This document shows positions 31,375-55,762 of a DNA stretch of 64,000 nucleotides, piece by piece. Where the stretch lies: assembly GCF_003018255.1 (NCBI RefSeq), contig NZ_CP027440.1; one strand, written 5' to 3'. The notes below the pieces were generated by a model. The model saw nothing but the letters and a program-made list of their open reading frames with translations. It was not told where the DNA came from and searched no databases. The stretch comes from Escherichia coli. GTDB taxonomy: Bacteria; Pseudomonadota; Gammaproteobacteria; Enterobacterales; Enterobacteriaceae. A program made the position numbers and the translations under genes. The number at the start of each line of letters is the position of its first letter. Position 1 is the stretch's first letter.

Positions 31375-32394
31375 TCAGAAGTCGGCTTTCAGAACCACGC
31401 GGTAGCGCGCTTTACCATCGCGTACATGCTGGATAGCGTCGTTAATTTTCGACATCGGGAACAGTTCGGTAGTCGGCGCAACCTTGCTGCGGGCGGCAAA
31501 GCGCATCAGCTTACGCAGCTCATAAGGCGTGCCGGTAGCAGAACCAGAGACGCTGCGGTCGCCCGCAATTAACGTAAAGGCCGGAACAGACAGCGGCGTG
31601 AGAACCGCACCGACCGTATGGAAATTACCGCCATACGTCAGCGCCTCAAAATAAGGCTGCCAGTCGAGGCTGACGTTGACGGTGTTGATAATGAGATCAA
31701 ACTGCCCCGCCAGTGCTTTGAGTGCCTGCGGATCGCGGCTATTCACCACTTTATCGGCACCCATCGCCAGTACTTCCTGCTCTTTCGCCGGATTAGAACT
31801 AAAGGCTGTCACCTCGCATCCCATTGCGTGCAGAAGTTTTATAGCGATATGCCCCAGCCCGCCAATACCAATCACGCCGACGCGGCTGGTGGCAGTGATA
31901 TGGTGCATCAACAGTGGTTTAAAGACCGTGATACCGCCGCACAACAGCGGCCCAGCAGATTCAATGTCGATATTTTCTGGCAGTGGGATTACCCATTGCC
32001 AGTCCGCACGCAACTTCTCGGCAAAACCGCCGCGATTCAAAATCGTCGGCACCGCACCTTGCTCGCAGTTGATCTGATTACCGCTAATACAGGCGTCGCA
32101 GTGACCACAGCTACGCGCCGTCCAGCCAATCCCGACACGCTGACCGACCTGCAAACCTTTATCCTGCGCGGCGCTACCCAATGCAACCACGCGCCCAATC
32201 ACCTCATGCCCGGCAACCAGCGGATACTGTGAAAATCCCCATTCGTTGTCGATCATCGACAGATCGGAATGGCAGATCCCGCAGTAATCCACCTGAACTT
32301 CAACATCTTGTGGCTTCAGTTCACCGGGATCGTACTCATAAACTTCCAGTTCGCCGCCAGCCTCTTTTGCGGCATAACTTTTTATCATCGACAT
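31375..32394 (-). CDS. ahr: NADPH-dependent aldehyde reductase Ahr (YjgB), Zn-dependent ADH family
   Basis: Trimmed to [18 protein letters not shown] start (339 aa); GHEVIG and GIGGLG motifs. Confidence 0.9.
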
Positions 32395-32589
32395 GTTTTT
32401 ATCCTTCTCTGGTGTGGTCTGGGAAGTGTAGAGCATGGCAGGGCGGGGCGCCTGGAGTGTGACAAAGGTTACACATCGCGGTATGCAATGCTGAAAATTT
32501 CAGCACTTAGCGAGGTGCGAGCAAGCTGGCGCTTGCATGGTGGCGTGCGACAGGTATAATCCACAACGTTTTCCGCATACCTCTTCAGT

Positions 32590-32674
32590 GCCGAAGTGGC
32601 GAAATCGGTAGACGCAGTTGATTCAAAATCAACCGTAGAAATACGTGCCGGTTCGAGTCCGGCCTTCGGCACCA
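32590..32674 (+). tRNA. leuX: tRNA-Leu (anticodon CAA)
   Basis: 85-nt sequence GCCGAAGTGGCGAAATCGGTAGACGCAGTTGATTCAAAATCAACC...GGTTCGAGTCCGGCCTTCGGCACCA with cloverleaf arms and encoded CCA. Confidence 0.95.
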
Positions 32675-32896
32675 AGTGATGCAATAATTAGCTACCTAAG
32701 GGTGGCTTTTTTTGTGTCCATTTCCGTCCAAATTCGTCCATATCCGTTTGTAATTCAAAGGTAATTTATTTTTCCACAATAACCATATTTATTTTGTGGT
32801 CTTTCCGTGTTGGTCATTTTTCATCCATTGACATCCACGCGATTTGGGGGCCAAATTGGGGGCTTAGACGTAGTTCGATAATAGTGAGGCCCCCAA

Positions 32897-34573
32897 ATGG
32901 CACTAACAGATCGCGCTATAGTCCACGCCAAGCCTTGTGGCAAGCCGTATAAGCTCAGTGACTCGCATGGACTTTACCTGCTGGTTAACCCTAACGGTTC
33001 AAAACGCTGGTACATCAAGTACCGCTTTGTAAACAAAGAGAAAAAGCTCGCTTTAGGCCCTTATCCGCTTTTGACGCTTGCACAGGCAAGACGCATGCGT
33101 GAAGAGGCACAATTATTGCTGATTTCCGGCATCGATCCGAGTGCACGCCGAAAAGCAGAACGCCTTGCGATAACGCCGGAACATACGTTTGAGTCTGTGG
33201 CACGTGAATGGGTCACCAGTAACGTGAACTGGTCGGCGGAACATAAGAAGCGGGTGCTGCGTTATTTCGAGCTTTACGTATTCCCCACGAACGGCAGCTG
33301 TGACATCACCAAAATGAAGGTCAAAGATCTGCTGGTGCCCATCAAGGAAGTGGAGAAAGCGGGCAAACTGGATGTTGCTTCCCGGCTTCAGCAGCGCACT
33401 GCCTGCGTGATGCGCTACGCCGTCCAGAACGGCATTATCGATCATAACCCTGCATCAGATTTAACCGGCGCGGTCTCCACGCCCAAAGTACGGCATCACC
33501 CGGCGTTGGATCTGAATCTTATCCCTGATTTCCTGGAAAGAATCGACGATTACAAAGGCCGTCAACTGACTCAACTGGCGGTAAAACTGGCACTGCTGCT
33601 GTTTATCCGCTCCAGCGAACTGCGCTTTGCCCGCTGGGATGAAATTGATCTGCGTAACGCCATGTGGACCATCCCCGCTGAGCGTGAGCCGATCCCCGGC
33701 GTTAAATATTCAGCGCGTGGGGCGAAGATGCACTCCCCACACCTGGTCCCATTGTCACGTCAGGCCATCGAACTGCTGCACGAGGTGCGGCAGCATTGCC
33801 GACCGGGAACTGAACTGGTGTTCCCCGGCGATCACAATTACCGCAAGCCGATGAGTGAAAACACCATCAACAAAGCGCTGCGGGTGATGGGCTACGACAC
33901 CCAGAAAGATGTCTGTGGCCACGGTTTTCGCACTATGGCCTGTAGCGCGCTGGTGGAGTCGGGGCTGTGGTCAAGCGACGCGGTAGAGCGCCAGATGAGC
34001 CATCAGGAGCGCAAGCGCGTGCGTGCGGCGTATATCCACAAGGCGCAGCATCTCGAAGAACGTTGGGAGATGATGCAGTGGTGGGCGGATTATCTGGATG
34101 CAAACCGGTTCAGGCATGTTGTGCCGTATGGCTTCAAAAAGTCGCCGGGAGGCGCACTCGACCATATGAGTTTCCAGGAGCGCAATGACCGGCAGCTAGA
34201 GGAGCTGAAAGCCAGAATACTGGCTGACTCGGAATGGCTGACGGCGTCTGAATTATCCGCAAAAGCGGGCTTTCGTTCCGCCGATCCTGATGCTGGTCCG
34301 AAAGGCTGGAAAGCCGCCGGGAAGATATTCTCGCTGAAGGTCGATGGTGAGGATTTATACCCTGATTATGTTCTGGATGAGAAAATGCGGCCTCTCAAGG
34401 TTGTCCGTTTGATTCTTTCACTGTTTAAGGAGCGTAAAACACCGTGGGGGCTGGCTATCTGGTTTGGCTCGGCTAATCGCAGGTTGAGAGGTGGGAGGCC
34501 GAAAGACCTGCTGATTTCGAAGTCAGAGTTGGTTCTGATGGCGGCGCAGGAGGAGGTGGAGTCGGGGGAGTAG
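32897..34573 (+). CDS. P4-type tyrosine integrase with ~150-aa C-terminal extension
   Basis: 558 aa; N-terminal arm-binding region, catalytic HGFR and Tyr (AAYIH) region at ~aa 350-375; extension ends in a GGRPKDLL-type motif. Confidence 0.85.
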   Translation: MALTDRAIVHAKPCGKPYKLSDSHGLYLLVNPNGSKRWYIKYRFVNKEKKLALGPYPLLTLAQARRMREEAQLLLISGIDPSARRKAERLAITPEHTFESVAREWVTSNVNWSAEHKKRVLRYFELYVFPTNGSCDITKMKVKDLLVPIKEVEKAGKLDVASRLQQRTACVMRYAVQNGIIDHNPASDLTGAVSTPKVRHHPALDLNLIPDFLERIDDYKGRQLTQLAVKLALLLFIRSSELRFARWDEIDLRNAMWTIPAEREPIPGVKYSARGAKMHSPHLVPLSRQAIELLHEVRQHCRPGTELVFPGDHNYRKPMSENTINKALRVMGYDTQKDVCGHGFRTMACSALVESGLWSSDAVERQMSHQERKRVRAAYIHKAQHLEERWEMMQWWADYLDANRFRHVVPYGFKKSPGGALDHMSFQERNDRQLEELKARILADSEWLTASELSAKAGFRSADPDAGPKGWKAAGKIFSLKVDGEDLYPDYVLDEKMRPLKVVRLILSLFKERKTPWGLAIWFGSANRRLRGGRPKDLLISKSELVLMAAQEEVESGE

Positions 34574-34735
34574 GAATGGTTACTCAACCCTGAAAGAATG
34601 CGTCCAACTACTCTTTACCCTTCTTTCTTTAATGGAAAATGACGTTTGGAAGGTTGAATAAGGCATCGCATTTCTGGCGGTCTTTTTTTGATCATTTACG
34701 TTGCTTCTTTCTTTATTTGTTCATAACATTGTTTT

Positions 34736-34752
34736 GTTCATGATTCATGAAC
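34736..34752. promoter_or_regulatory. 17-bp palindrome GTTCATGATTCATGAAC (candidate operator) just upstream of start codon
   Basis: Perfect 8-bp arms around a central base; candidate -35 TTGCTT / -10 TAACAT immediately upstream; TTGTTCA half-sites repeated nearby. Confidence 0.5.
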
Positions 34753-34756
34753 AGTT

Positions 34757-35770
34757 ATGAGGTGTGAACAAATGAAGGAAGAACAGCTTTTGTCTGATGC
34801 GATAGAGAATCTGCCAAAAGGATTCCATTTGCAGTATGAACATAGCGGTAGACATGGTAAGCACGATGCCTGGGGTAAGCTAACAGGGCCGGATGGTGAG
34901 TCAGTGATATTTGCTCTGGAAGTAAAATTTATCCACCGTAAAGAGTCACTGATGGCTGTTCGCGAACAAATGGTTCGCTTTCCTGCGGATTTTCCTGTGC
35001 TGCTGGTGTGTAACCGCCTGACGTCTGCACTGGCGGAATATTGCGCCGACAGCCAGATCAACTTTATCGATACGGCAGGGAATGCCCGTATCCAGGTTCC
35101 AGGCTTGTATGTGCGGATCGAAGGCCGCTATGAAAAGAAACCCGTTTCCGCCAGCAGTCGTTTTGCTGAAGGGGTGATGAAGCTTCTTTTTGTTTTGCTG
35201 TCTAGCCCAGAGACCCTGAACGAGACTTACCGCAGTCTGGCCGGAAAGGCAGGTATCTCTCTGGGAATGGTCAGCAAGGCTTTTGATTATCTCGAAGCGC
35301 AACGCTATTTCCGCAAATCGAAGAAGGGGCGTCGCTTAATCAATGAAGGCGAGTTAGAGGCTTTGTGGCTGAAAGATTATGCTACAGCTTTGCGCCCTAA
35401 GCTGGATTCGCTTTCTTTATCCGCGCCTGTTTCATGGGATGAGTTGACGCTTGCGTCCGGGGAATACTGGAGCGGCGAGATTGCGGCGGCAAAGCTGAGC
35501 GGAGGATACCTGATACCAGAAAATGGCGTGATTTTTACATCCCATCCGTTGTTACAAAGGCGAAAGGAACTGGGACTAAAACCTGTTCCGGGGGGGAAAC
35601 TACAGCTGATCGCCGGTTTTTGGGGGAACTTTGTACTGAATCACAAAGCCGAGGCGATGCTATGCGTGGCTGAACTGCTGGCAAGCGGGGATGACAGAAA
35701 CTGGGAAACAGCAAGGATAATCAATGACAAATATCTTCACCTTAATGAATCCGATCTCTTCAGCTACTGA
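34757..35770 (+). CDS. Hypothetical protein with N-terminal PD-(D/E)xK-like motif and central winged-HTH
   Basis: 337 aa; GPDGESVIFALEVKF (PD...ExK pattern) and ISLGMVSKAFDYLEAQRYF HTH-like segment; alternative ATG at 34772. Confidence 0.6.
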   Translation: MRCEQMKEEQLLSDAIENLPKGFHLQYEHSGRHGKHDAWGKLTGPDGESVIFALEVKFIHRKESLMAVREQMVRFPADFPVLLVCNRLTSALAEYCADSQINFIDTAGNARIQVPGLYVRIEGRYEKKPVSASSRFAEGVMKLLFVLLSSPETLNETYRSLAGKAGISLGMVSKAFDYLEAQRYFRKSKKGRRLINEGELEALWLKDYATALRPKLDSLSLSAPVSWDELTLASGEYWSGEIAAAKLSGGYLIPENGVIFTSHPLLQRRKELGLKPVPGGKLQLIAGFWGNFVLNHKAEAMLCVAELLASGDDRNWETARIINDKYLHLNESDLFSY

Positions 35771-36533
35771 AACGTTACTGAGTCAGATCAACCGTATTTG
35801 CACCGCTCAGGGGATCCCGTTTTTTATTGCAGGTGCAACGGCTCGTGAAATTCTGCTCCATCATATACACAGCAGAAGTATTGGTCGCCGAACCCGTGAT
35901 ATTGATATTGCCGTCTTTGTGGATAGCTGGCCGAGATTTGATGCGCTTAAAAATGCTTTCCTTGCTGAAGGGGCAGAAGTTGTCCAAGGTAATGCCCATC
36001 GTATGATTGTCAAAGGGATCGAGCTAGATATTATTCCTTTTGGTGGTGTTGCTGAAGGAAATCAAATTGCCTGGCCACCAGAACGTGAGATCATAATGGC
36101 TGTGGATGGATTTGCCGAAGTCTTTTCTCATACCGTAGTTGTGCGGCTGGATAACAGCGAAAATATTCCGTTCTGCTCCTTGCCAGGACTGGCTCTGTTA
36201 AAACTTTTTGCATGGCGTGATCGTGGGCATGGGAGTACTAAAGACGCGACCGATCTCTTTAAGATTATCTGTGAATATGGTGTTATCGAGAATGAACGCA
36301 TCTATGAATCGCCCGTCGAAGGGGAACGCCTGAACTGGGATCCCATACGTATGGGCGCTTTTCTGTTGGGAAGCGATATAGCGACAATTAGTGAACACTC
36401 ATCCTTGCAGGATTTACTCCATCTTGATAAAGAACGCCTGATCGATGTGATAGTACGACAACATGACGTGGGTGATGCTGGGATTGAGCAGATCATCAAT
36501 GATTTCTGGGATGGTATGGCAAGTGATGGTTGA
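35724..36533 (+). CDS. Pol-beta-superfamily nucleotidyltransferase (AbiEii/DUF1814-like motif pattern)
   Basis: 269 aa; AGATA...GRRTRDIDIAVFV then DIIPFGG acidic motif; overlaps upstream gene by up to 47 nt. Confidence 0.6.
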   Translation: MTNIFTLMNPISSATETLLSQINRICTAQGIPFFIAGATAREILLHHIHSRSIGRRTRDIDIAVFVDSWPRFDALKNAFLAEGAEVVQGNAHRMIVKGIELDIIPFGGVAEGNQIAWPPEREIIMAVDGFAEVFSHTVVVRLDNSENIPFCSLPGLALLKLFAWRDRGHGSTKDATDLFKIICEYGVIENERIYESPVEGERLNWDPIRMGAFLLGSDIATISEHSSLQDLLHLDKERLIDVIVRQHDVGDAGIEQIINDFWDGMASDG

Positions 36534-36571
36534 GGATGTAGTTTTAGATGAAATGTTCACAACAGAGTTTT

Positions 36572-36588
36572 GTTCATGAATCATGAAC
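36572..36588. promoter_or_regulatory. Second copy of the 17-bp palindrome (GTTCATGAATCATGAAC) within a ~40-bp duplicated block
   Basis: Block agagttttgttcatgaatcatgaacggtattattgtgaacaatgg matches 34730-34774. Confidence 0.45.
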
Positions 36589-36678
36589 GGTATTATTGTG
36601 AACAATGGCAGGGCGTAACGCCAACTGCCCGATTAAGATGCGCTTATGTTATCAATAATGCCAGCCCAGAGTCAGTCG

Positions 36679-36800
36679 CGACATCATCAAACTGAAGGTC
36701 AAAGGCTTGCTGGTTCCCATCAAAGATAGTGGAGAACGCAGGTAAACTTGATGTTCCACCTTCCACGGCGCACCGCACCTTCGGCATGATGCGCTAATAT
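36679..36800 (+). pseudogene. Internal fragment of a P4-type integrase gene (frameshifted)
   Basis: About 75-80 percent nucleotide identity to 33302-33420 of the intact integrase (by-eye alignment); reading frame breaks. Confidence 0.6.
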
Positions 36801-36840
36801 TATGGCTATATAGGTATTGAAAAGATAAAATATTATCACT

Positions 36841-37329
36841 ATGGCTAAAAAAACGGCTCCCTTAGTTCCCGGTACTAATCAGTTGCTTGCTGAGTTTGGC
36901 GAACGGCTTAAGCTGGCGCGACTGCGACGTAAGCTCACAGCGAAGCGGGTTGCTGAGCGAGCCGGGATGTCGCCAATGACCTTGCGTTCTCTTGAATCAG
37001 GCGGGACGGGCGTGACAATCGGCGCTTATTTGTCAGTTATGCAGATTTTGGGTCTTGAAAAGGATCTGAACAAACTTGCCGCTGAGGATGAACAGGGACG
37101 CCAACTTCAGGATTCCCGGCTAATAAATAAAACGCGTGTTTCTCGTCCTGCTGCTATCTCTCACACAAACAGGCATACCGGAAACGTGATAAAAAACGAT
37201 GCCTTCGACAAGCAATTCTCGACATCACAAGAAAAATCAATCGATTCTGAAGTTAAAACAGAAGTCGTGACATCTGCATCTCTTGCTGCACTGCTAAAAC
37301 CAATAAAGAAACCCAGAAAAGGTAGCTGA
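36841..37329 (+). CDS. XRE-family HTH protein
   Basis: 162 aa, N-terminal HTH_3-type segment ([32 protein letters not shown]). Confidence 0.7.
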
Positions 37330-37692
37330 CACGCTGGAATTTTTGTATTGAAACGAGGGACTATAGATTTCGATAGCAAAAAATAAAGCCTGCTGATGAT
37401 ATGTTTAAAAAATGCCAAAAAATGTACATATGGCGTTGATATGTCGATGCTGTAAACATATTTTGGCGTTATGTCGATAAAACTGGTTTTTTTAAACATA
37501 TCGTCATGCTTAATCCAACCGCTCAATCAGTCTTATATCTGTTATGGAAAATGCTTGTAAAATGGCGCGTTCTGCCATCTGGCAATGTTCATATTTACTG
37601 GCTCGAGGAATATCGTCCCCCCTTAATTTCCATGAAAAGTAATTTTAATTCATTTAGTTATTAATCTTTTCTCCGCTGAGAATATGAATTTT

Positions 37693-37710
37693 TATCCCCT
37701 ATAGGGGATA
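37693..37710. promoter_or_regulatory. 18-bp perfect palindrome TATCCCCTATAGGGGATA matching HipB operator consensus TATCC-N8-GGATA
   Basis: Perfect palindrome 30 bp upstream of the HipB-like ATG; a related TATCC...GGATA site at 37724-37737. Confidence 0.6.
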
Positions 37711-37739
37711 TGCTCAAAATATCTATCCTGGGGGATAAA

Positions 37740-38081
37740 ATGAACGTAACCTCACCCAAAATGTTGTCTCAGGCAATCAGGGATGCACGCAAGCAACGTA
37801 ACCTGACCCAGCGTGAAACTGCAGCAAGTATGGGCATGAAACAGTCAACGGTTTCAGAGTTTGAGAACCATCCTGAGGGGACCAGCCTGGATACGCTCTT
37901 TAAGCTGCTTGCCGCTCTGGACCTTAAGCTTCAGGTCGTAAGCTGGAGGGGTAAAAAAACTCTTCTGATGGCTGGGAGCAGGAGTGGTGATCTGTGGAAA
38001 TATGAACAAAAAGGCCATGGCGCTATCCGGACGGAACCACCATTTTCACTAGCGTACCATCTGGATTTCCAGAGCACATAA
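37740..38081 (+). CDS. HipB-like XRE-family HTH regulator with C-terminal extension
   Basis: MNVTSPKMLSQAIRDARKQRNLTQRETAASMGMKQSTVSEFENHPEGTSLDTLFKLLAALDLKLQVV resembles HipB; operator palindrome upstream. Confidence 0.65.
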   Translation: MNVTSPKMLSQAIRDARKQRNLTQRETAASMGMKQSTVSEFENHPEGTSLDTLFKLLAALDLKLQVVSWRGKKTLLMAGSRSGDLWKYEQKGHGAIRTEPPFSLAYHLDFQST

Positions 38082-38207
38082 GAGAAGCTATTTTTGCATC
38101 AGTCAGCGCGTATTCCGTAGCCATCTCGGCAGTAGTTGAAACAGTAAAAAATGCCCCTATTTCATGGCTAATTAACCGCTAAATTCCAGCCATGGAGGAA
38201 ACCACCG

Positions 38208-38474
38208 ATGTCACCTCGGACACACCGCCAGCTCGTAAGTGTTGAAGTGATGTGGCCTGCTCAGACGCTACCGCTTCCCCTACAACAGGTAGTCGAAGCA
38301 TTGAATCAGGGCGAAACGCCCGATCAGATTATTATCCGCATGAACCAACGGGGTCTGCTGGCGTGGCGTGAGGATGCATCCGCGCAGGATACACACGATA
38401 TCTTTCAGGTACGTCTGGACAACCAGAATGAGGCGCGATTTCTCTGCCGCTACGTTACGTTGCCGCTGCACTGA
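38208..38474 (+). CDS. Hypothetical protein (88 aa)
   Basis: ORF with GGAGGA RBS 7 nt upstream of ATG; no recognisable domain. Confidence 0.4.
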   Translation: MSPRTHRQLVSVEVMWPAQTLPLPLQQVVEALNQGETPDQIIIRMNQRGLLAWREDASAQDTHDIFQVRLDNQNEARFLCRYVTLPLH

Positions 38475-38585
38475 TGCCCCTATCCCGGTAACGCGAAATT
38501 GAAGAGTGCTGTTTATCACCGGATAAATTAATATGCTATAAAATAAAGAGTTAGCAAATGTCGTTTCAGGGATGATGAGTTGTAA

Positions 38586-39239
38586 ATGAAGAAGAAACTG
38601 CCAGACCAGCTTTCCAGGGAATGCATTATTGCGGCTATGCGTGCCTATGATGAAGGTGTACGCCACCAGTTCAGCGAGTCCCGGCTGTATGATGTGGTCT
38701 TTGAAGGGCGCAGTTATCCACCGAAAGCTATAGTCGGTATTGCTGCTTCAAATATGACTGGCGTTGAGTTTTCCCCTGAAGATTTTAGTGGTGGTATCAA
38801 GTCGAAATGCGTCAAGTTGCTTACCGATCAAGGGTTCCAGATCGTTGAGAAACATTTGGGTAACGAGCAGCCCGCCATCAGTATTTTTCCTGATGAACTG
38901 CCACCGCAGAGCGTATTTACTGAAGGTGCAGCTACGCAGGTAACGGTTAATCGCTATGAACGCGACCGTAAGGCCCGACAGGCCGCATTAGCCTGGCATG
39001 GTTGTCTGTGCAAAGTATGTGGTATTGATATGATGAAGGTGTATGGCGAGATAGCGAAAGGTTTTATCCATATACACCACCTGATTCCGCTATCAGACAT
39101 CAAAGAGAATTACTCTCTGGATCCCAAAAAAGATTTTATTCCCGTCTGCCCAAATTGCCACGCCATGTTGCATCGGCGTAATCCGCCTTTTTCGCCTGAA
39201 GAATTGAAATCAATTATTGAATATCATGCGGCTCTTTAG
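38586..39239 (+). CDS. HNH endonuclease family protein (McrA-like HNH core; unknown N-terminal domain)
   Basis: CKVCG...HIHHLIPLS...CPNCH motif set typical of HNH nucleases in the C-terminal third. Confidence 0.75.
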   Translation: MKKKLPDQLSRECIIAAMRAYDEGVRHQFSESRLYDVVFEGRSYPPKAIVGIAASNMTGVEFSPEDFSGGIKSKCVKLLTDQGFQIVEKHLGNEQPAISIFPDELPPQSVFTEGAATQVTVNRYERDRKARQAALAWHGCLCKVCGIDMMKVYGEIAKGFIHIHHLIPLSDIKENYSLDPKKDFIPVCPNCHAMLHRRNPPFSPEELKSIIEYHAAL

Positions 39240-53255: not shown

Positions 53256-54203
53256 ATGAGAAAAATTCTTTTCTTCCTGCTGTTGATGATAGCCGTCCTG
53301 CCGGAGGTTCAGGCCACCTGTTCGTTCTACGGTGGTGTGACATCAGAAGTATCGGGTTACCTGAATTTCGGCAACGTGGTTATCCAGCGGGATGCACAGG
53401 TCGGCAGCACGATTGCCACTGCCATTACAGGGGCATACAACAATGGCGACGGCATTGCCGGGTGTAAGCGGGAGGCCTGGACCGCCCGCTGGGAACTGAC
53501 GCAATGGGGGACGCTGAGTGGCTATGGGAATGGTGTCTACAACACCAACCTGCCAGGGGTAGGATTACGTCTGAGTGCGGCCTCGACAGGTAAAACATTG
53601 CCCTATGAAACCAGCTACGCCTACAACGCTGGCGGCACCTGGGTATCCATTCCCGGTGATGGCATCAAGGGCGAGCTTATCAAAACCGGGGATATCACCA
53701 GCGGTACATTAACGGACGGTGTGCTGGCGCGCGCTTCGGTAGTGAATCAGTTTTATTTTGCCAACGTCACGTTGAACGGGATGAACACAGTGAAATCAGA
53801 AGCTTGTACTGTGACCACGCCCTCTGTTGATGTCCCGATGGGGGATCACGATAAAAGCGAATTCAGTGGTGCGGGATCTTCAACCGACTGGGTGAGCTTT
53901 GATATTGGTTTGAGCTGCGATGTCGGGGCGAGAATAAACGTACGTATCGATGCCACTGCGGATGCTTCCGCCGGTTCGCAAGGCGTCATGCTGATTGATA
54001 GCGGCGGGGCGTCTGGCGTGGGGATACAACTTCATTACCGCCCGGATGATGCCGCTGTCCAGTACGGTCAGGAACGGTTTTACTGGCAGTCGGTATATGG
54101 TGACGAGATCGTGCAGCTTAAGGCGCGATATTACCAGACTGCAGGCTCGATCACGCCAGGTGCGGCAAACGGTACGGCGACGTTTACGATGAGTTATAAA
54201 TAG
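53256..54203 (+). CDS. Fimbrial adhesin-like two-domain subunit (paralogue 2)
   Basis: 315 aa; C-terminal half aligns with paralogue 1 (…QLKARYYQTA…ATFT.SYK), N-terminal half diverged. Confidence 0.7.
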   Translation: MRKILFFLLLMIAVLPEVQATCSFYGGVTSEVSGYLNFGNVVIQRDAQVGSTIATAITGAYNNGDGIAGCKREAWTARWELTQWGTLSGYGNGVYNTNLPGVGLRLSAASTGKTLPYETSYAYNAGGTWVSIPGDGIKGELIKTGDITSGTLTDGVLARASVVNQFYFANVTLNGMNTVKSEACTVTTPSVDVPMGDHDKSEFSGAGSSTDWVSFDIGLSCDVGARINVRIDATADASAGSQGVMLIDSGGASGVGIQLHYRPDDAAVQYGQERFYWQSVYGDEIVQLKARYYQTAGSITPGAANGTATFTMSYK

Positions 54204-54214
54204 CGCGTAATCAT

Positions 54215-55762
54215 ATGGAATATTCTATGTCGGATATTGTCGCCGGGAACAGGATTGCTGCTCAATATTTAAGAATGTCTACCGAGCATCAGAAATATTC
54301 GCCGGAGAACCAGCGGGAATATATCGAGAAGTATGCAAAAGAACACTGTATTACCATTAAATATACCTATGACGACGCTGGCCGAAGTGGGCTGAGCCTG
54401 GATAACAGGCCTGGCCTGCGTTCGCTGTTATATGATGTTGAAAACGGAATAATAAAAGTCTCGTTAATTCTTGTTTACGATGTCAGTCGGTTTGGTCGTT
54501 TTCAGGATATTGAAGAGGCTGCTCATTACTCGTGGCTACTGAAGCGTAATGGTGTGCGCATTATTTATTGCGCGGAGCCTTTCTCGGAAGAACAGACCGA
54601 ATTGTTTATGCTGGGATTATCTTACTCCCGCTATGGCGCCGCAACTTACAGTAAAAACCTTTCACAAAAAGTTTTTCTTGGCCAGGCAAACCTCGTTCGG
54701 CGGGGTTATTATCAAGGTGGTATGCCTGGCTATGGCATTCGGAGATTATTAATTGATGAACATACTAATCCGAAAGGCATGCTTCTGCCGGGGCAAAGGA
54801 AAAGCCTGCAAACTGACAGAGTAATATTGATCCCGGGGCCCGCGGAAGAGGTGGTAATAGTCAATAAAATCTATGACATGTTTATTGATGAGGGCAAGCC
54901 TGAGTTTGTTATTGCTTCAGAACTGAACCGGAAGAACATCCCCGCCGAGAATGGGCTCCAGTGGAGCCGATGTAAAATTCATCAGATACTGACCAATGAA
55001 AAATATATTGGCAATAATGTTTATAACAGAACCTCCGGACGATTGAAGACCCGAAGTGTCAGGAATCCTCAGGATCAGTGGATCAGATGTGACGGCGCGT
55101 GGGACCCTGTGGTATCAGTAGAGAAATTTGAGGCGGCTAAAAGGATTATTGAAGCCAGGGCCGTTCAGTACAGTGATGATGAACTGCTGGATAAACTACG
55201 CCATCTGCTGAAGCTTCGTGGCAGATTATCCGGGATTGTGATTGATGAAGAGGAACTGTTTCCATCGAGCAGCATTTTTCGTTCACGGTTTGGTGGGTTA
55301 GTCAGGGCTTACACCCTTATTGGTTATCACCCGCGCCATGATTACTCTTATCTTGAAATAAAAAAGCAGATTGCAGAATGCCATCTCACTTTCATGGATA
55401 ATTTGGTGCAGGATATATACCGATATGGCGGTTGGGCAGAGATGCATCAGGATGGTTCATTATATATTAATGATGAGTTTTTTGTTTCCGCTAATCTGGT
55501 TCGCTGCCAACGTTTGTCGTCAGGTAAGCTTCGTTGGAAGATAAAATTTAATGTATCCCATTATTGTGATGTCATGATCTTTCCACGGTTGGATAGCACA
55601 AATAACTCCGTGGTTGATTACTTTATGTTTCCGGCTATTGATGTGTTGTATAACGATTTAACGCTTCATGAGAACAATGGTTTTATCCTCGAACTATATC
55701 GATTTGATGATTTGTCATGTCTGGAAAATCTTGTAAAACGAACTGGTCTGGAGAGTAAATAA
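54215..55762 (+). CDS. Large serine recombinase
   Basis: 515 aa; N-terminal resolvase catalytic motif YLRMSTEHQ; starts 11 nt after adhesin stop. Confidence 0.8.
   Translation: MEYSMSDIVAGNRIAAQYLRMSTEHQKYSPENQREYIEKYAKEHCITIKYTYDDAGRSGLSLDNRPGLRSLLYDVENGIIKVSLILVYDVSRFGRFQDIEEAAHYSWLLKRNGVRIIYCAEPFSEEQTELFMLGLSYSRYGAATYSKNLSQKVFLGQANLVRRGYYQGGMPGYGIRRLLIDEHTNPKGMLLPGQRKSLQTDRVILIPGPAEEVVIVNKIYDMFIDEGKPEFVIASELNRKNIPAENGLQWSRCKIHQILTNEKYIGNNVYNRTSGRLKTRSVRNPQDQWIRCDGAWDPVVSVEKFEAAKRIIEARAVQYSDDELLDKLRHLLKLRGRLSGIVIDEEELFPSSSIFRSRFGGLVRAYTLIGYHPRHDYSYLEIKKQIAECHLTFMDNLVQDIYRYGGWAEMHQDGSLYINDEFFVSANLVRCQRLSSGKLRWKIKFNVSHYCDVMIFPRLDSTNNSVVDYFMFPAIDVLYNDLTLHENNGFILELYRFDDLSCLENLVKRTGLESK

What the first reader, a model, noticed from the sequence alone, without database searches (positions are those of the whole stretch)
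36679..36800. Internal fragment of a second P4-type integrase gene downstream of the two-gene module
By-eye alignment shows 36679-36800 is about 75-80 percent identical to 33302-33420 of the intact integrase (codons ~136-175) but is frameshifted. This indicates a degenerate second integrase copy, that is tandem or nested island acquisitions at leuX with later deletion. It helps delimit the mosaic modules on either side.
Basis: seen in the sequence. Interest (0 to 1): 0.35.

Follow-up and report, generated by a model that had tools for sequence, protein, structure and literature searches.

The report
Dead integrase remnant inside leuX ICE
A 124-base, frameshifted leftover of a second P4-type integrase gene sits in the cargo region of a conjugative element inserted at the leuX tRNA gene; it is real and it records past recombination between related elements, but it has no apparent function and is an ordinary kind of genomic scar.

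Summary
Window 36673-36796 aligns to 33295-33417 of the intact integrase at 78% identity, BLAST E=3e-21. The local alignment score is 104, against a maximum of 28 in 1000 dinucleotide shuffles. The piece covers only codons 134-173, in the central core-binding domain, and carries a frameshift and indels. It is a dead relic that RefSeq does not annotate.

It lies in the variable cargo slot (34582-38123) of a ~60 kb PFGI-1/pKLC102-class ICE at leuX. Its neighbours are an AbiEi/AbiEii module and an orphan hipB-like antitoxin gene.

The right border is a junction inside TGATGCGCTA. That sequence occurs in the integrase at codons 170-173, and as TGATGTGCTA just upstream of hipB in intact integrase-hipBA left ends in Salmonella and Atlantibacter. 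There the two sites are direct repeats 1389 nt apart. One microhomology deletion in such an arrangement reproduces the junction.

The relic and hipB are therefore most likely the remains of the left end of a second, roughly 20% diverged, related leuX element. No internal att site and no full-length parent were found, so tandem integration is plausible but unproven.

The relic was inherited with a cargo block shared by E. coli and Salmonella ICEs. Interest is low.

The parts
36673..36796 (+). Relic of a second P4-type tyrosine integrase gene. It covers codons ~134-173, in the central/core-binding domain, and carries a frameshift and indels.
   Evidence: falls inside the Phage_int_M region (residues 98-192) of the intact copy; not annotated in 6 RefSeq genomes
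36787..36796 (+). Right junction. TGATGCGCTA is shared between integrase codons 170-173 and the native upstream end of the hipB module (TGATGTGCTA), a 9/10 microhomology.
   Evidence: hipB-module homology begins at 36787-36793 in seven independent contexts
36612..36672 (.). 61-nt filler of unknown origin between the AbiE module flank and the integrase relic (left junction).
   Evidence: no significant match to any fetched locus or elsewhere in the window; an exact-match metagenome scan finds it only in this same arrangement
36841..37329 (+). Orphan hipB-like XRE/HTH antitoxin gene (162 aa) with no hipA partner. Its upstream region starts at 36793.
   Evidence: Pfam HTH_31/HTH_3; 76-80% nt identity to HTH genes that directly precede HipA toxin genes; no hipA remnant in the window
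34757..36533 (+).
   Evidence: Pfam AbiEi_2 and AbiEii, the latter just below the curated cut-off; PGAP names
36554..36605 (+). Downstream copy of a 54-nt repeat containing the palindrome TGTTCATGAaTCATGAACA. It marks the right end of the AbiE module; the partner copy is at 34718-34771.
   Evidence: (D6); terminator-like hairpin at 36570-36590
32897..34573 (+). Intact 558-aa P4-type integrase next to leuX. The relic is homologous to 33295-33417 of this gene.
   Evidence: Pfam Arm-DNA-bind_3 + Phage_int_M + Phage_integrase; 58% aa identity to phage P4 Int
32590..32674 (+). tRNA-Leu(CAA) leuX, the attachment site and left end of the ICE.
   Evidence: PGAP
34582..38123 (.). Variable cargo slot of the ICE family, between the integrase and the conserved 88-aa ORF. 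The relic lies inside it.
   Evidence: backbone homology to S10-type E. coli, Atlantibacter, Citrobacter and metagenome ICEs stops at 34574-34581 and resumes at 38124-38139

Best explanation
Window 36673-36796 is a non-functional scar: 40 frameshifted codons from the core-binding domain of a second P4-type, leuX-class integrase allele (called int_B here), about 20% diverged in DNA from the resident integrase. Together with the adjacent orphan hipB-like gene it is most likely what remains of the left end (leuX-int_B-hipB-hipA) of a second, related PFGI-1/pKLC102-class ICE. That element probably came to lie downstream of an int_A-AbiE left end by site-specific integration in tandem at leuX. Three changes then followed. 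A large deletion fused the AbiE flank, plus 61 nt of filler, to int_B codon ~134. A 1.4-kb deletion between the 10-nt microhomology TGATG(C/T)GCTA in int_B and the same motif upstream of hipB removed the rest of int_B. hipA was lost. This happened once in an ancestral element. The resulting AbiE-relic-hipB block now travels as ICE cargo between E. coli and Salmonella and keeps decaying. What is shown: the homology, the pseudogene state, the module borders, the microhomology, the existence of intact int-hipBA left ends, and the spread of the block. What is inferred: the tandem array, and the order and number of deletions.
For: The homology is real and specific. It has E=3e-21 and z=38. At DNA level it is detectable only against the 558-aa leuX-ICE integrase subgroup among 5426 E. 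coli genomes and 54 cross-species loci; the best matches are 84-86% over 77-83 nt to Citrobacter, Kluyvera and S10-type integrases. The piece has a frameshift and indels, lacks the Arm and catalytic domains, and another lineage carries a further 20-nt deletion. It lies inside the cargo slot of an ICE that has one attL (leuX) and one attR-like repeat. Relative to Franconibacter (int-AbiE-37 nt-37396...) and RM10466, the block 36612-37395 (filler, relic and hipB) is an extra insert. Intact leuX-int(558 aa)-hipB-hipA left ends exist in Salmonella L074 and Atlantibacter L028. In both, TGATGCGCTA (integrase) and TGATGTGCTA or TAATGTGCTA (hipB upstream) are direct repeats 1389 nt apart. The window junction reads TGATGCGCTA|ATATT, exactly the product of a deletion between them. 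The relic's divergence from the integrase (77-78%) matches the divergence of hipB from hipB (80%). Secondary integrase remnants recur in this integrase family: L006, L014, L016, L028, L036, L046, L059. Tandem ICE arrays that resolve by deletion or recombination into hybrids are documented for SXT/R391 and ICESt1 (PMC5812530).
Against: No internal att or leuX repeat lies near the relic. The element carries only one set of conjugation genes. No genome with a full-length int_B closely matching the relic was found. The 61 nt at the left junction are unexplained. At least three separate deletions must be assumed. The microhomology could be coincidental, since a 10-mer in a 1.7-kb gene is not vanishingly rare. 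The relic plus filler are somewhat better conserved between E. coli and Salmonella (98.4-98.6%) than the flanking abiE genes (94.3%). This fits mosaic exchange, but it is also what weak constraint would give.
Confidence: 0.7

Rival explanations
1. The relic did not come from a tandem array at leuX. A short int-hipB piece was instead captured from a co-resident element (another island, plasmid or incoming ICE DNA) by illegitimate recombination directly into the cargo hotspot downstream of AbiE.
For: Relative to Franconibacter and RM10466 the 784-bp block 36612-37395 looks like a simple insertion or replacement between the AbiE flank and the 37396 region. The slot is visibly a hotspot for illegitimate replacement: Fic genes in S10, McrB/MTase in L080, AbiE deletion in L063. 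There is no att remnant and no second backbone.
Against: The inserted piece still has to come from an integrase-hipB arrangement, so the integrase-hipBA left-end origin stands. Two integrase alleles of the same leuX subgroup in the same orientation are most simply brought together by site-specific integration. No donor was identified.
Confidence: 0.22
2. The relic region is retained because it functions. It might supply the promoter or operator context for the orphan hipB-like gene, or a cis or antisense element affecting the resident integrase.
For: The filler and relic are 98.4-98.6% identical between E. coli and Salmonella copies, while abiE is 94.3% and the backbone ~92%. In L080 the relic and the hipB upstream region are kept although hipB itself is replaced. 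The native hipB upstream homology is only ~48-54 nt long, so upstream promoter elements would have to lie in the relic.
Against: The consensus scan finds no promoter-like site in 36600-36840. There is no Rfam match. L063 carries a 20-nt deletion inside the relic. The sample is small: 2 differences in 124 nt. Mosaic exchange of the block explains the uneven identity. Seventy-eight per cent identity with indels is poor for antisense pairing.
Confidence: 0.06
3. The similarity is due to chance or low complexity and is not homology.
For: None beyond the short length.
Against: E=3e-21; score 104 against a shuffle maximum of 28. The same stretch matches orthologous positions of many integrases from other genera.
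Confidence: 0.01

Closest known systems
Integrase pseudogenes and remnants in tRNA-associated genomic islands formed by tandem accretion and deletion (ICESt1-type accretion; SXT/R391 tandem arrays and hybrids)
   Same: A second integrase allele of the same att-specificity class lies in the same orientation downstream of the functional one. It is truncated and decaying, and it sits at a border between modules of different ancestry. Arrays are known to resolve by deletion or recombination (PMC5812530).
   Different: No internal att site and no second backbone are left. Only 124 nt of an internal domain survive, both ends are illegitimate junctions, and the scar now circulates as part of the cargo.
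Phage P4 integrase family (leuX-specific; Arm-DNA-bind_3 / Phage_int_M / Phage_integrase)
   Same: The resident integrase is 58% identical to P4 Int over 408 aa and sits next to leuX. That leuX is P4's own attachment site is from my own knowledge. The relic is 78% identical in DNA to residues 134-173 of that integrase.
   Different: The relic lacks the Arm and catalytic domains and has no reading frame. The resident integrase has an extra ~140-aa C-terminal extension that P4 Int lacks.
PFGI-1 / pKLC102 / PAPI-1 / SPI-7 class integrative conjugative elements
   Same: The host element carries TIGR037xx ICE genes, PilL2, a MobH relaxase, TraD, ParB and STY45xx-type replication genes, with the integrase next to a tRNA gene.
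   Different: This family member is at leuX in E. coli and Salmonella and is rare: 6 of 5426 complete E. coli genomes have this cargo version and about 36-40 have the S10 version. I found no paper describing this particular leuX ICE in two literature searches.
HipBA type II toxin-antitoxin modules (long HipB-like HTH + ~420-aa HipA kinase, e.g. downstream of rplI in E. coli B2 strains)
   Same: The gene to the right of the relic is a full-length homologue of the HTH partner of such HipA toxins: 62-63% aa identity to the rplI-linked copy and 79-81% to ICE-borne copies.
   Different: The toxin gene is absent, so the gene is an orphan antitoxin or regulator.

Membership tests
P4-type tyrosine integrase gene (the relic as a member) | Sequence homology to P4-family integrases | tested here: met
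   78% nt identity to the resident integrase, E=3e-21, z=38. The resident integrase is 58% aa identical to P4 Int.
P4-type tyrosine integrase gene (the relic as a member) | Three-domain architecture: Arm-binding, core-binding and catalytic | tested here: not met
   Only residues 134-173 of the central domain are present. The reconstructed 40-aa peptide gives no Pfam hit.
P4-type tyrosine integrase gene (the relic as a member) | Intact reading frame with the catalytic R-K-H-R-H-Y residues | tested here: not met
   There is a frameshift between codons ~151 and 152 and further indels. The catalytic domain is absent.
P4-type tyrosine integrase gene (the relic as a member) | Adjacent att site (tRNA 3' end repeat) | tested here: not met
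   The only match to the leuX 3' end in the window is leuX itself. The attR-like repeat lies ~47 kb downstream in JNE23-011.
Tandem-accretion composite element | Two integrase genes of the same specificity class in direct orientation | tested here: met
   Integrase at 32897-34573 and relic at 36673-36796, both on the + strand. The relic matches only the leuX-ICE integrase subgroup.
Tandem-accretion composite element | Internal att site between the two elements | tested here: not met
Tandem-accretion composite element | Remains of two element backbones | tested here: not met
   There is a single set of conjugation, partition and replication genes in the ~60 kb between leuX and attR. Only cargo from two sources (AbiE, hipB) is present.
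HipBA toxin-antitoxin module (neighbouring gene) | HipB-like HTH antitoxin followed by a HipA kinase | tested here: not met
   The HTH gene is present. tblastn with three HipA proteins finds nothing in 36500-38600.
PFGI-1/pKLC102-class ICE (host element) | Signature conjugation genes, a tRNA-adjacent integrase and flanking direct repeats | tested here: met
   PGAP annotation of the identical element in JNE23-011; leuX; an attR-like 15-nt repeat with a 6-nt duplication. Transfer was not tested.

The most novel reading that the evidence does not exclude
The relic, the 61-nt filler and the hipB upstream stretch (36534-36840) may be kept under selection as a regulatory cassette. It could, for example, provide the promoter for an orphan HipB-like antitoxin that the ICE uses as an anti-addiction or immunity factor against HipA toxins of competing elements. 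That would explain its higher conservation than neighbouring genes across E. coli and Salmonella, and its retention in L080 when hipB itself is replaced.
Probability: 0.05. Interest if true: 0.45.

Novelty: new member of a known kind. Interest (0 to 1): 0.15.

Why it matters
The value is mainly for annotation and reconstruction. The relic is unannotated in RefSeq. It marks a module border to the base and, with the microhomology junction, gives a concrete example of how cargo regions of tRNA-integrated ICEs are built. Related elements meet at the same att site, most of one is deleted, and fragments of defence or toxin-antitoxin modules (AbiE, an orphan hipB) are left stitched together and then spread as a block between E. 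coli and Salmonella. It does not reveal a new mechanism or function.

Tried and rejected
1. I looked for a second leuX/att repeat near the relic and across the ICE. None was found, apart from one attR-like site ~47 kb downstream of the relic.

2. I looked for a full-length parent integrase in four ways: an E. coli 'distant' search, a cross-species scan with the integrase protein (54 loci), hipB-like homologues with their contexts, and an exact-match metagenome scan of the 61-nt filler. The best DNA match stays at 84-86% over ~80 nt. Every occurrence of the filler is in the same arrangement.

3. I tested whether the 61-nt filler is degenerate integrase or att sequence. It has no similarity above chance.

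4. I looked for hipA remnants after the hipB-like gene and found none.

5. I looked for known RNA families and promoter-like sites in the relic and found none.

6. L063-type elements (integrase followed closely by the hipB-like gene) initially looked like the parental arrangement. They are rejected as the parent because they keep the last ~26 nt of abiEii, the filler and the same relic. They are AbiE-deletion derivatives of the window arrangement.

7. Tandem Repeats Finder on 36400-38200 found nothing.

Full report
**Observation.** BLASTN of the region against the intact integrase gives a single strong alignment. Window 36680-36796 matches 33302-33417 with 94/121 identities (78%), 9 gap columns and E=3e-21. 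With related integrases as guides the homology begins at 36673.

- A Smith-Waterman score of 104 compares with mean 19.5, sd 2.2 and maximum 28 in 1000 dinucleotide-preserving shuffles.
- In translation the piece covers integrase residues 134-151 in one frame and 148-173 in another, with more indels toward the 3' end.
- This stretch lies within the Phage_int_M (core-binding) domain of the intact protein. That protein has the Arm-DNA-bind_3 / Phage_int_M / Phage_integrase architecture and is 58% identical to phage P4 Int over 408 residues.
- No other integrase remnant exists in the window.
- The piece carries no annotation in the six RefSeq genomes that contain it.

**Context.** The window reads as follows:

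- ahr (31375-32436, minus strand)
- leuX tRNA-Leu(CAA) (32590-32674)
- a 558-aa integrase (32897-34573)
- AbiEi/AbiEii (34757-36533)
- the relic
- a 162-aa XRE/HTH gene (36841-37329)
- a second HTH gene (37710-38081)
- an 88-aa ORF, an HNH endonuclease, then a MobH relaxase, ArdC and conjugation genes

The identical element in E. coli JNE23-011 is annotated with the TIGR037xx ICE genes, PilL2, TraD and ParB. It is a PFGI-1/pKLC102/SPI-7-class ICE. An attR-like repeat, CGAGTCCGGCCTTCG[ACCTTC]GCACCA, lies about 60 kb from leuX. No other leuX-end repeat is present in the window or in the rest of the ICE.

**Mosaic map.**

- Backbone homology to related leuX ICEs stops just after the integrase (34574-34581) and resumes at 38124-38139. 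This holds for E. coli S10 type, Atlantibacter, Citrobacter and metagenome contigs. So 34582-38123 is a variable cargo slot.
- S10-type elements carry Fic genes in that slot.
- The AbiE module ends at about 36605-36611. Franconibacter has int-AbiE, then 37 nt, then sequence matching window 37396 onward.
- The RM10466 leuX island keeps an abiEii 3' remnant up to 36602, followed by sequence like 37469 onward.
- Relative to both, 36612-37395 is an extra block. It holds 61 nt of unknown origin, the relic, the HTH gene and 66 nt.

**The neighbour is a hipB.** The 162-aa HTH gene is a full-length homologue of the HTH gene that directly precedes a ~420-aa HipA toxin.

- This pairing occurs downstream of rplI in more than 1000 E. 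coli genomes.
- It also occurs on related ICEs.
- The window has no hipA remnant.
- In seven independent contexts the hipB module's homology begins at window 36787-36793.

**The junction.** Native hipB upstream regions read TGATGTGCTAATAT (TAATGTGCTAATAT in Atlantibacter). Integrase codons 170-173 read GTGATGCGCTACGCC. The window reads TGATGCGCTAATATT.

- In Salmonella L074 (ahr-leuX-int558-hipB-hipA-McrBC) and Atlantibacter L028 these two 10-mers are direct repeats exactly 1389 nt apart.
- One microhomology-mediated deletion in such a left end yields the relic's right junction.
- The relic's divergence from the integrase (77-78%) is similar to this hipB's divergence from those hipB genes (about 80%).
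- I infer that the relic and hipB were contiguous in a second, diverged member of the same ICE family.

**How two integrase alleles met.** Two integrases of one att class in direct orientation are most simply produced by tandem site-specific integration. Such arrays are known to collapse by deletion or recombination into hybrids (SXT/R391, ICESt1; PMC5812530).

- Supporting signs are that the resident integrase is itself mosaic. Window versus C11 is 66-80% identical in 32938-33337 but 88-96% afterwards.
- Secondary integrase remnants also recur in loci of this integrase family (L006, L014, L016, L028, L036, L046, L059). They include a degenerate integrase 3' end downstream of hipBA in Atlantibacter.
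- Against the model, there is no internal att site, no second backbone and no full-length parent. The 61-nt filler matches nothing. At least three deletions are needed.
- Direct illegitimate capture of an int-hipB piece into the hotspot cannot be excluded.

**Inheritance and decay.**

- The block 34538-38276 is 99-100% identical between the window and E. coli C11, whereas the integrase and backbone are 66-97%.
- The same layout occurs in Salmonella (L066-L069). There the relic is 98.4% identical, against 94.3% for abiE and 92-93% for the hyp88 and mobH backbone.
- Variants include L063-65, with AbiE deleted from 34636 to 36507 and a further 20-nt deletion inside the relic.
- L080 is another variant, with hipB cut after 18 nt and replaced by McrB-like and methyltransferase cargo.
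- The scar therefore arose once, spreads with the cargo and continues to erode.

**Function.** I found no promoter-like site, no Rfam family and no reading frame of note. The slightly higher conservation of the relic plus filler than of abiE between E. coli and Salmonella rests on four differences in 263 nt. It is explained as well by mosaic exchange. A regulatory role for the hipB-like gene is the only non-trivial reading left, and I rate it at about 5%.

**Verdict.** This is a real but ordinary feature: an unannotated integrase pseudogene fragment that marks a recombination joint in the cargo slot of a leuX ICE.

Noticed in passing
window 34718-34771 and 36554-36605: A 54-nt direct repeat (83-87% identical) containing the perfect palindrome TGTTCATGA(t/a)TCATGAACA brackets the AbiEi/AbiEii pair. 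One copy sits just before the abiEi start codon and one just after the abiEii stop. Both copies are conserved in Franconibacter and Salmonella, and the downstream copy survives with the abiEii remnant in RM10466. It could be an AbiEi operator plus terminator, or the ends of a mobile cassette.
   Followed up: partly
window 34157-34573: The leuX integrase carries a ~140-aa C-terminal extension beyond the usual P4-type end (...WWADYLDANR). Only the closest Enterobacteriaceae relatives have it; others stop at ~415 aa. It has no significant Pfam hit, the best being Xre_MbcA_ParS_C at E=0.16. PGAP calls the gene a truncated pseudogene in JNE23-011 and intact in C11.
   Followed up: partly
window 37693-38081: A second orphan HipB-like HTH gene (37710-38081) is preceded by a HipB-operator-like palindrome TATCCCCTATAGGGGATA (37693-37710). 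No hipA follows it.
   Followed up: partly
L028 9961-10362 (Atlantibacter subterranea): A different integrase relic lies downstream of an intact hipBA pair. It is a degenerate copy of the 3' end of the integrase (residues ~385-548, including the C-terminal extension), 72-78% identical in DNA. The hipBA module is therefore bracketed by diverged integrase 3' ends.
   Followed up: partly
window 32738-33337 vs L002 (E. coli C11): The resident integrase gene is itself mosaic. Its 5' third is only 66-85% identical between two E. coli carriers, while the rest is mostly 92-96%. The switch falls near 33338, close to where the relic's homology begins.
   Followed up: partly
L006 3693-9513 (E. coli RM10466 leuX island): Another leuX island (hsdS/hsdM, ParB/Srx, BREX) holds an abiEii 3' remnant with its downstream repeat and two separate integrase remnants (residues 1-75 and 246-285). 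This shows the same kind of scarring at this hotspot in 47 E. coli genomes.
   Followed up: partly
window 37429-37506: Short hairpin-forming repeats here recur, in both orientations and in several copies, near the right end of the cargo slot in other ICE variants (L027 4906-5077, L028 9843-9949, L070 6889-6996). C11 has a 61-nt indel at this spot.
   Followed up: no
L062 4983-5010 (JNE23-011, outside the window): The putative attR of the ICE is CGAGTCCGGCCTTCG ACCTTC GCACCA. This is the leuX 3' end with a 6-nt internal duplication, so a 24-nt pattern search with 3 mismatches misses it.
   Followed up: partly
window 47444-55762: The ICE cargo includes a tyrosine-type DNA invertase next to a chaperone-usher fimbrial operon, followed by a serine recombinase and two ParB-like genes. 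The layout suggests a phase-variable fimbria carried by the ICE.
   Followed up: no
L008 9815-9886 (Franconibacter helveticus): The contig ends in what I recognise from memory as an IS1 terminal inverted repeat (GGTGATGCTGCCAACTTACTGATTTAGTGTATGATGGTG...). It is inserted right after the sequence that matches window 37396-37424.
   Followed up: no
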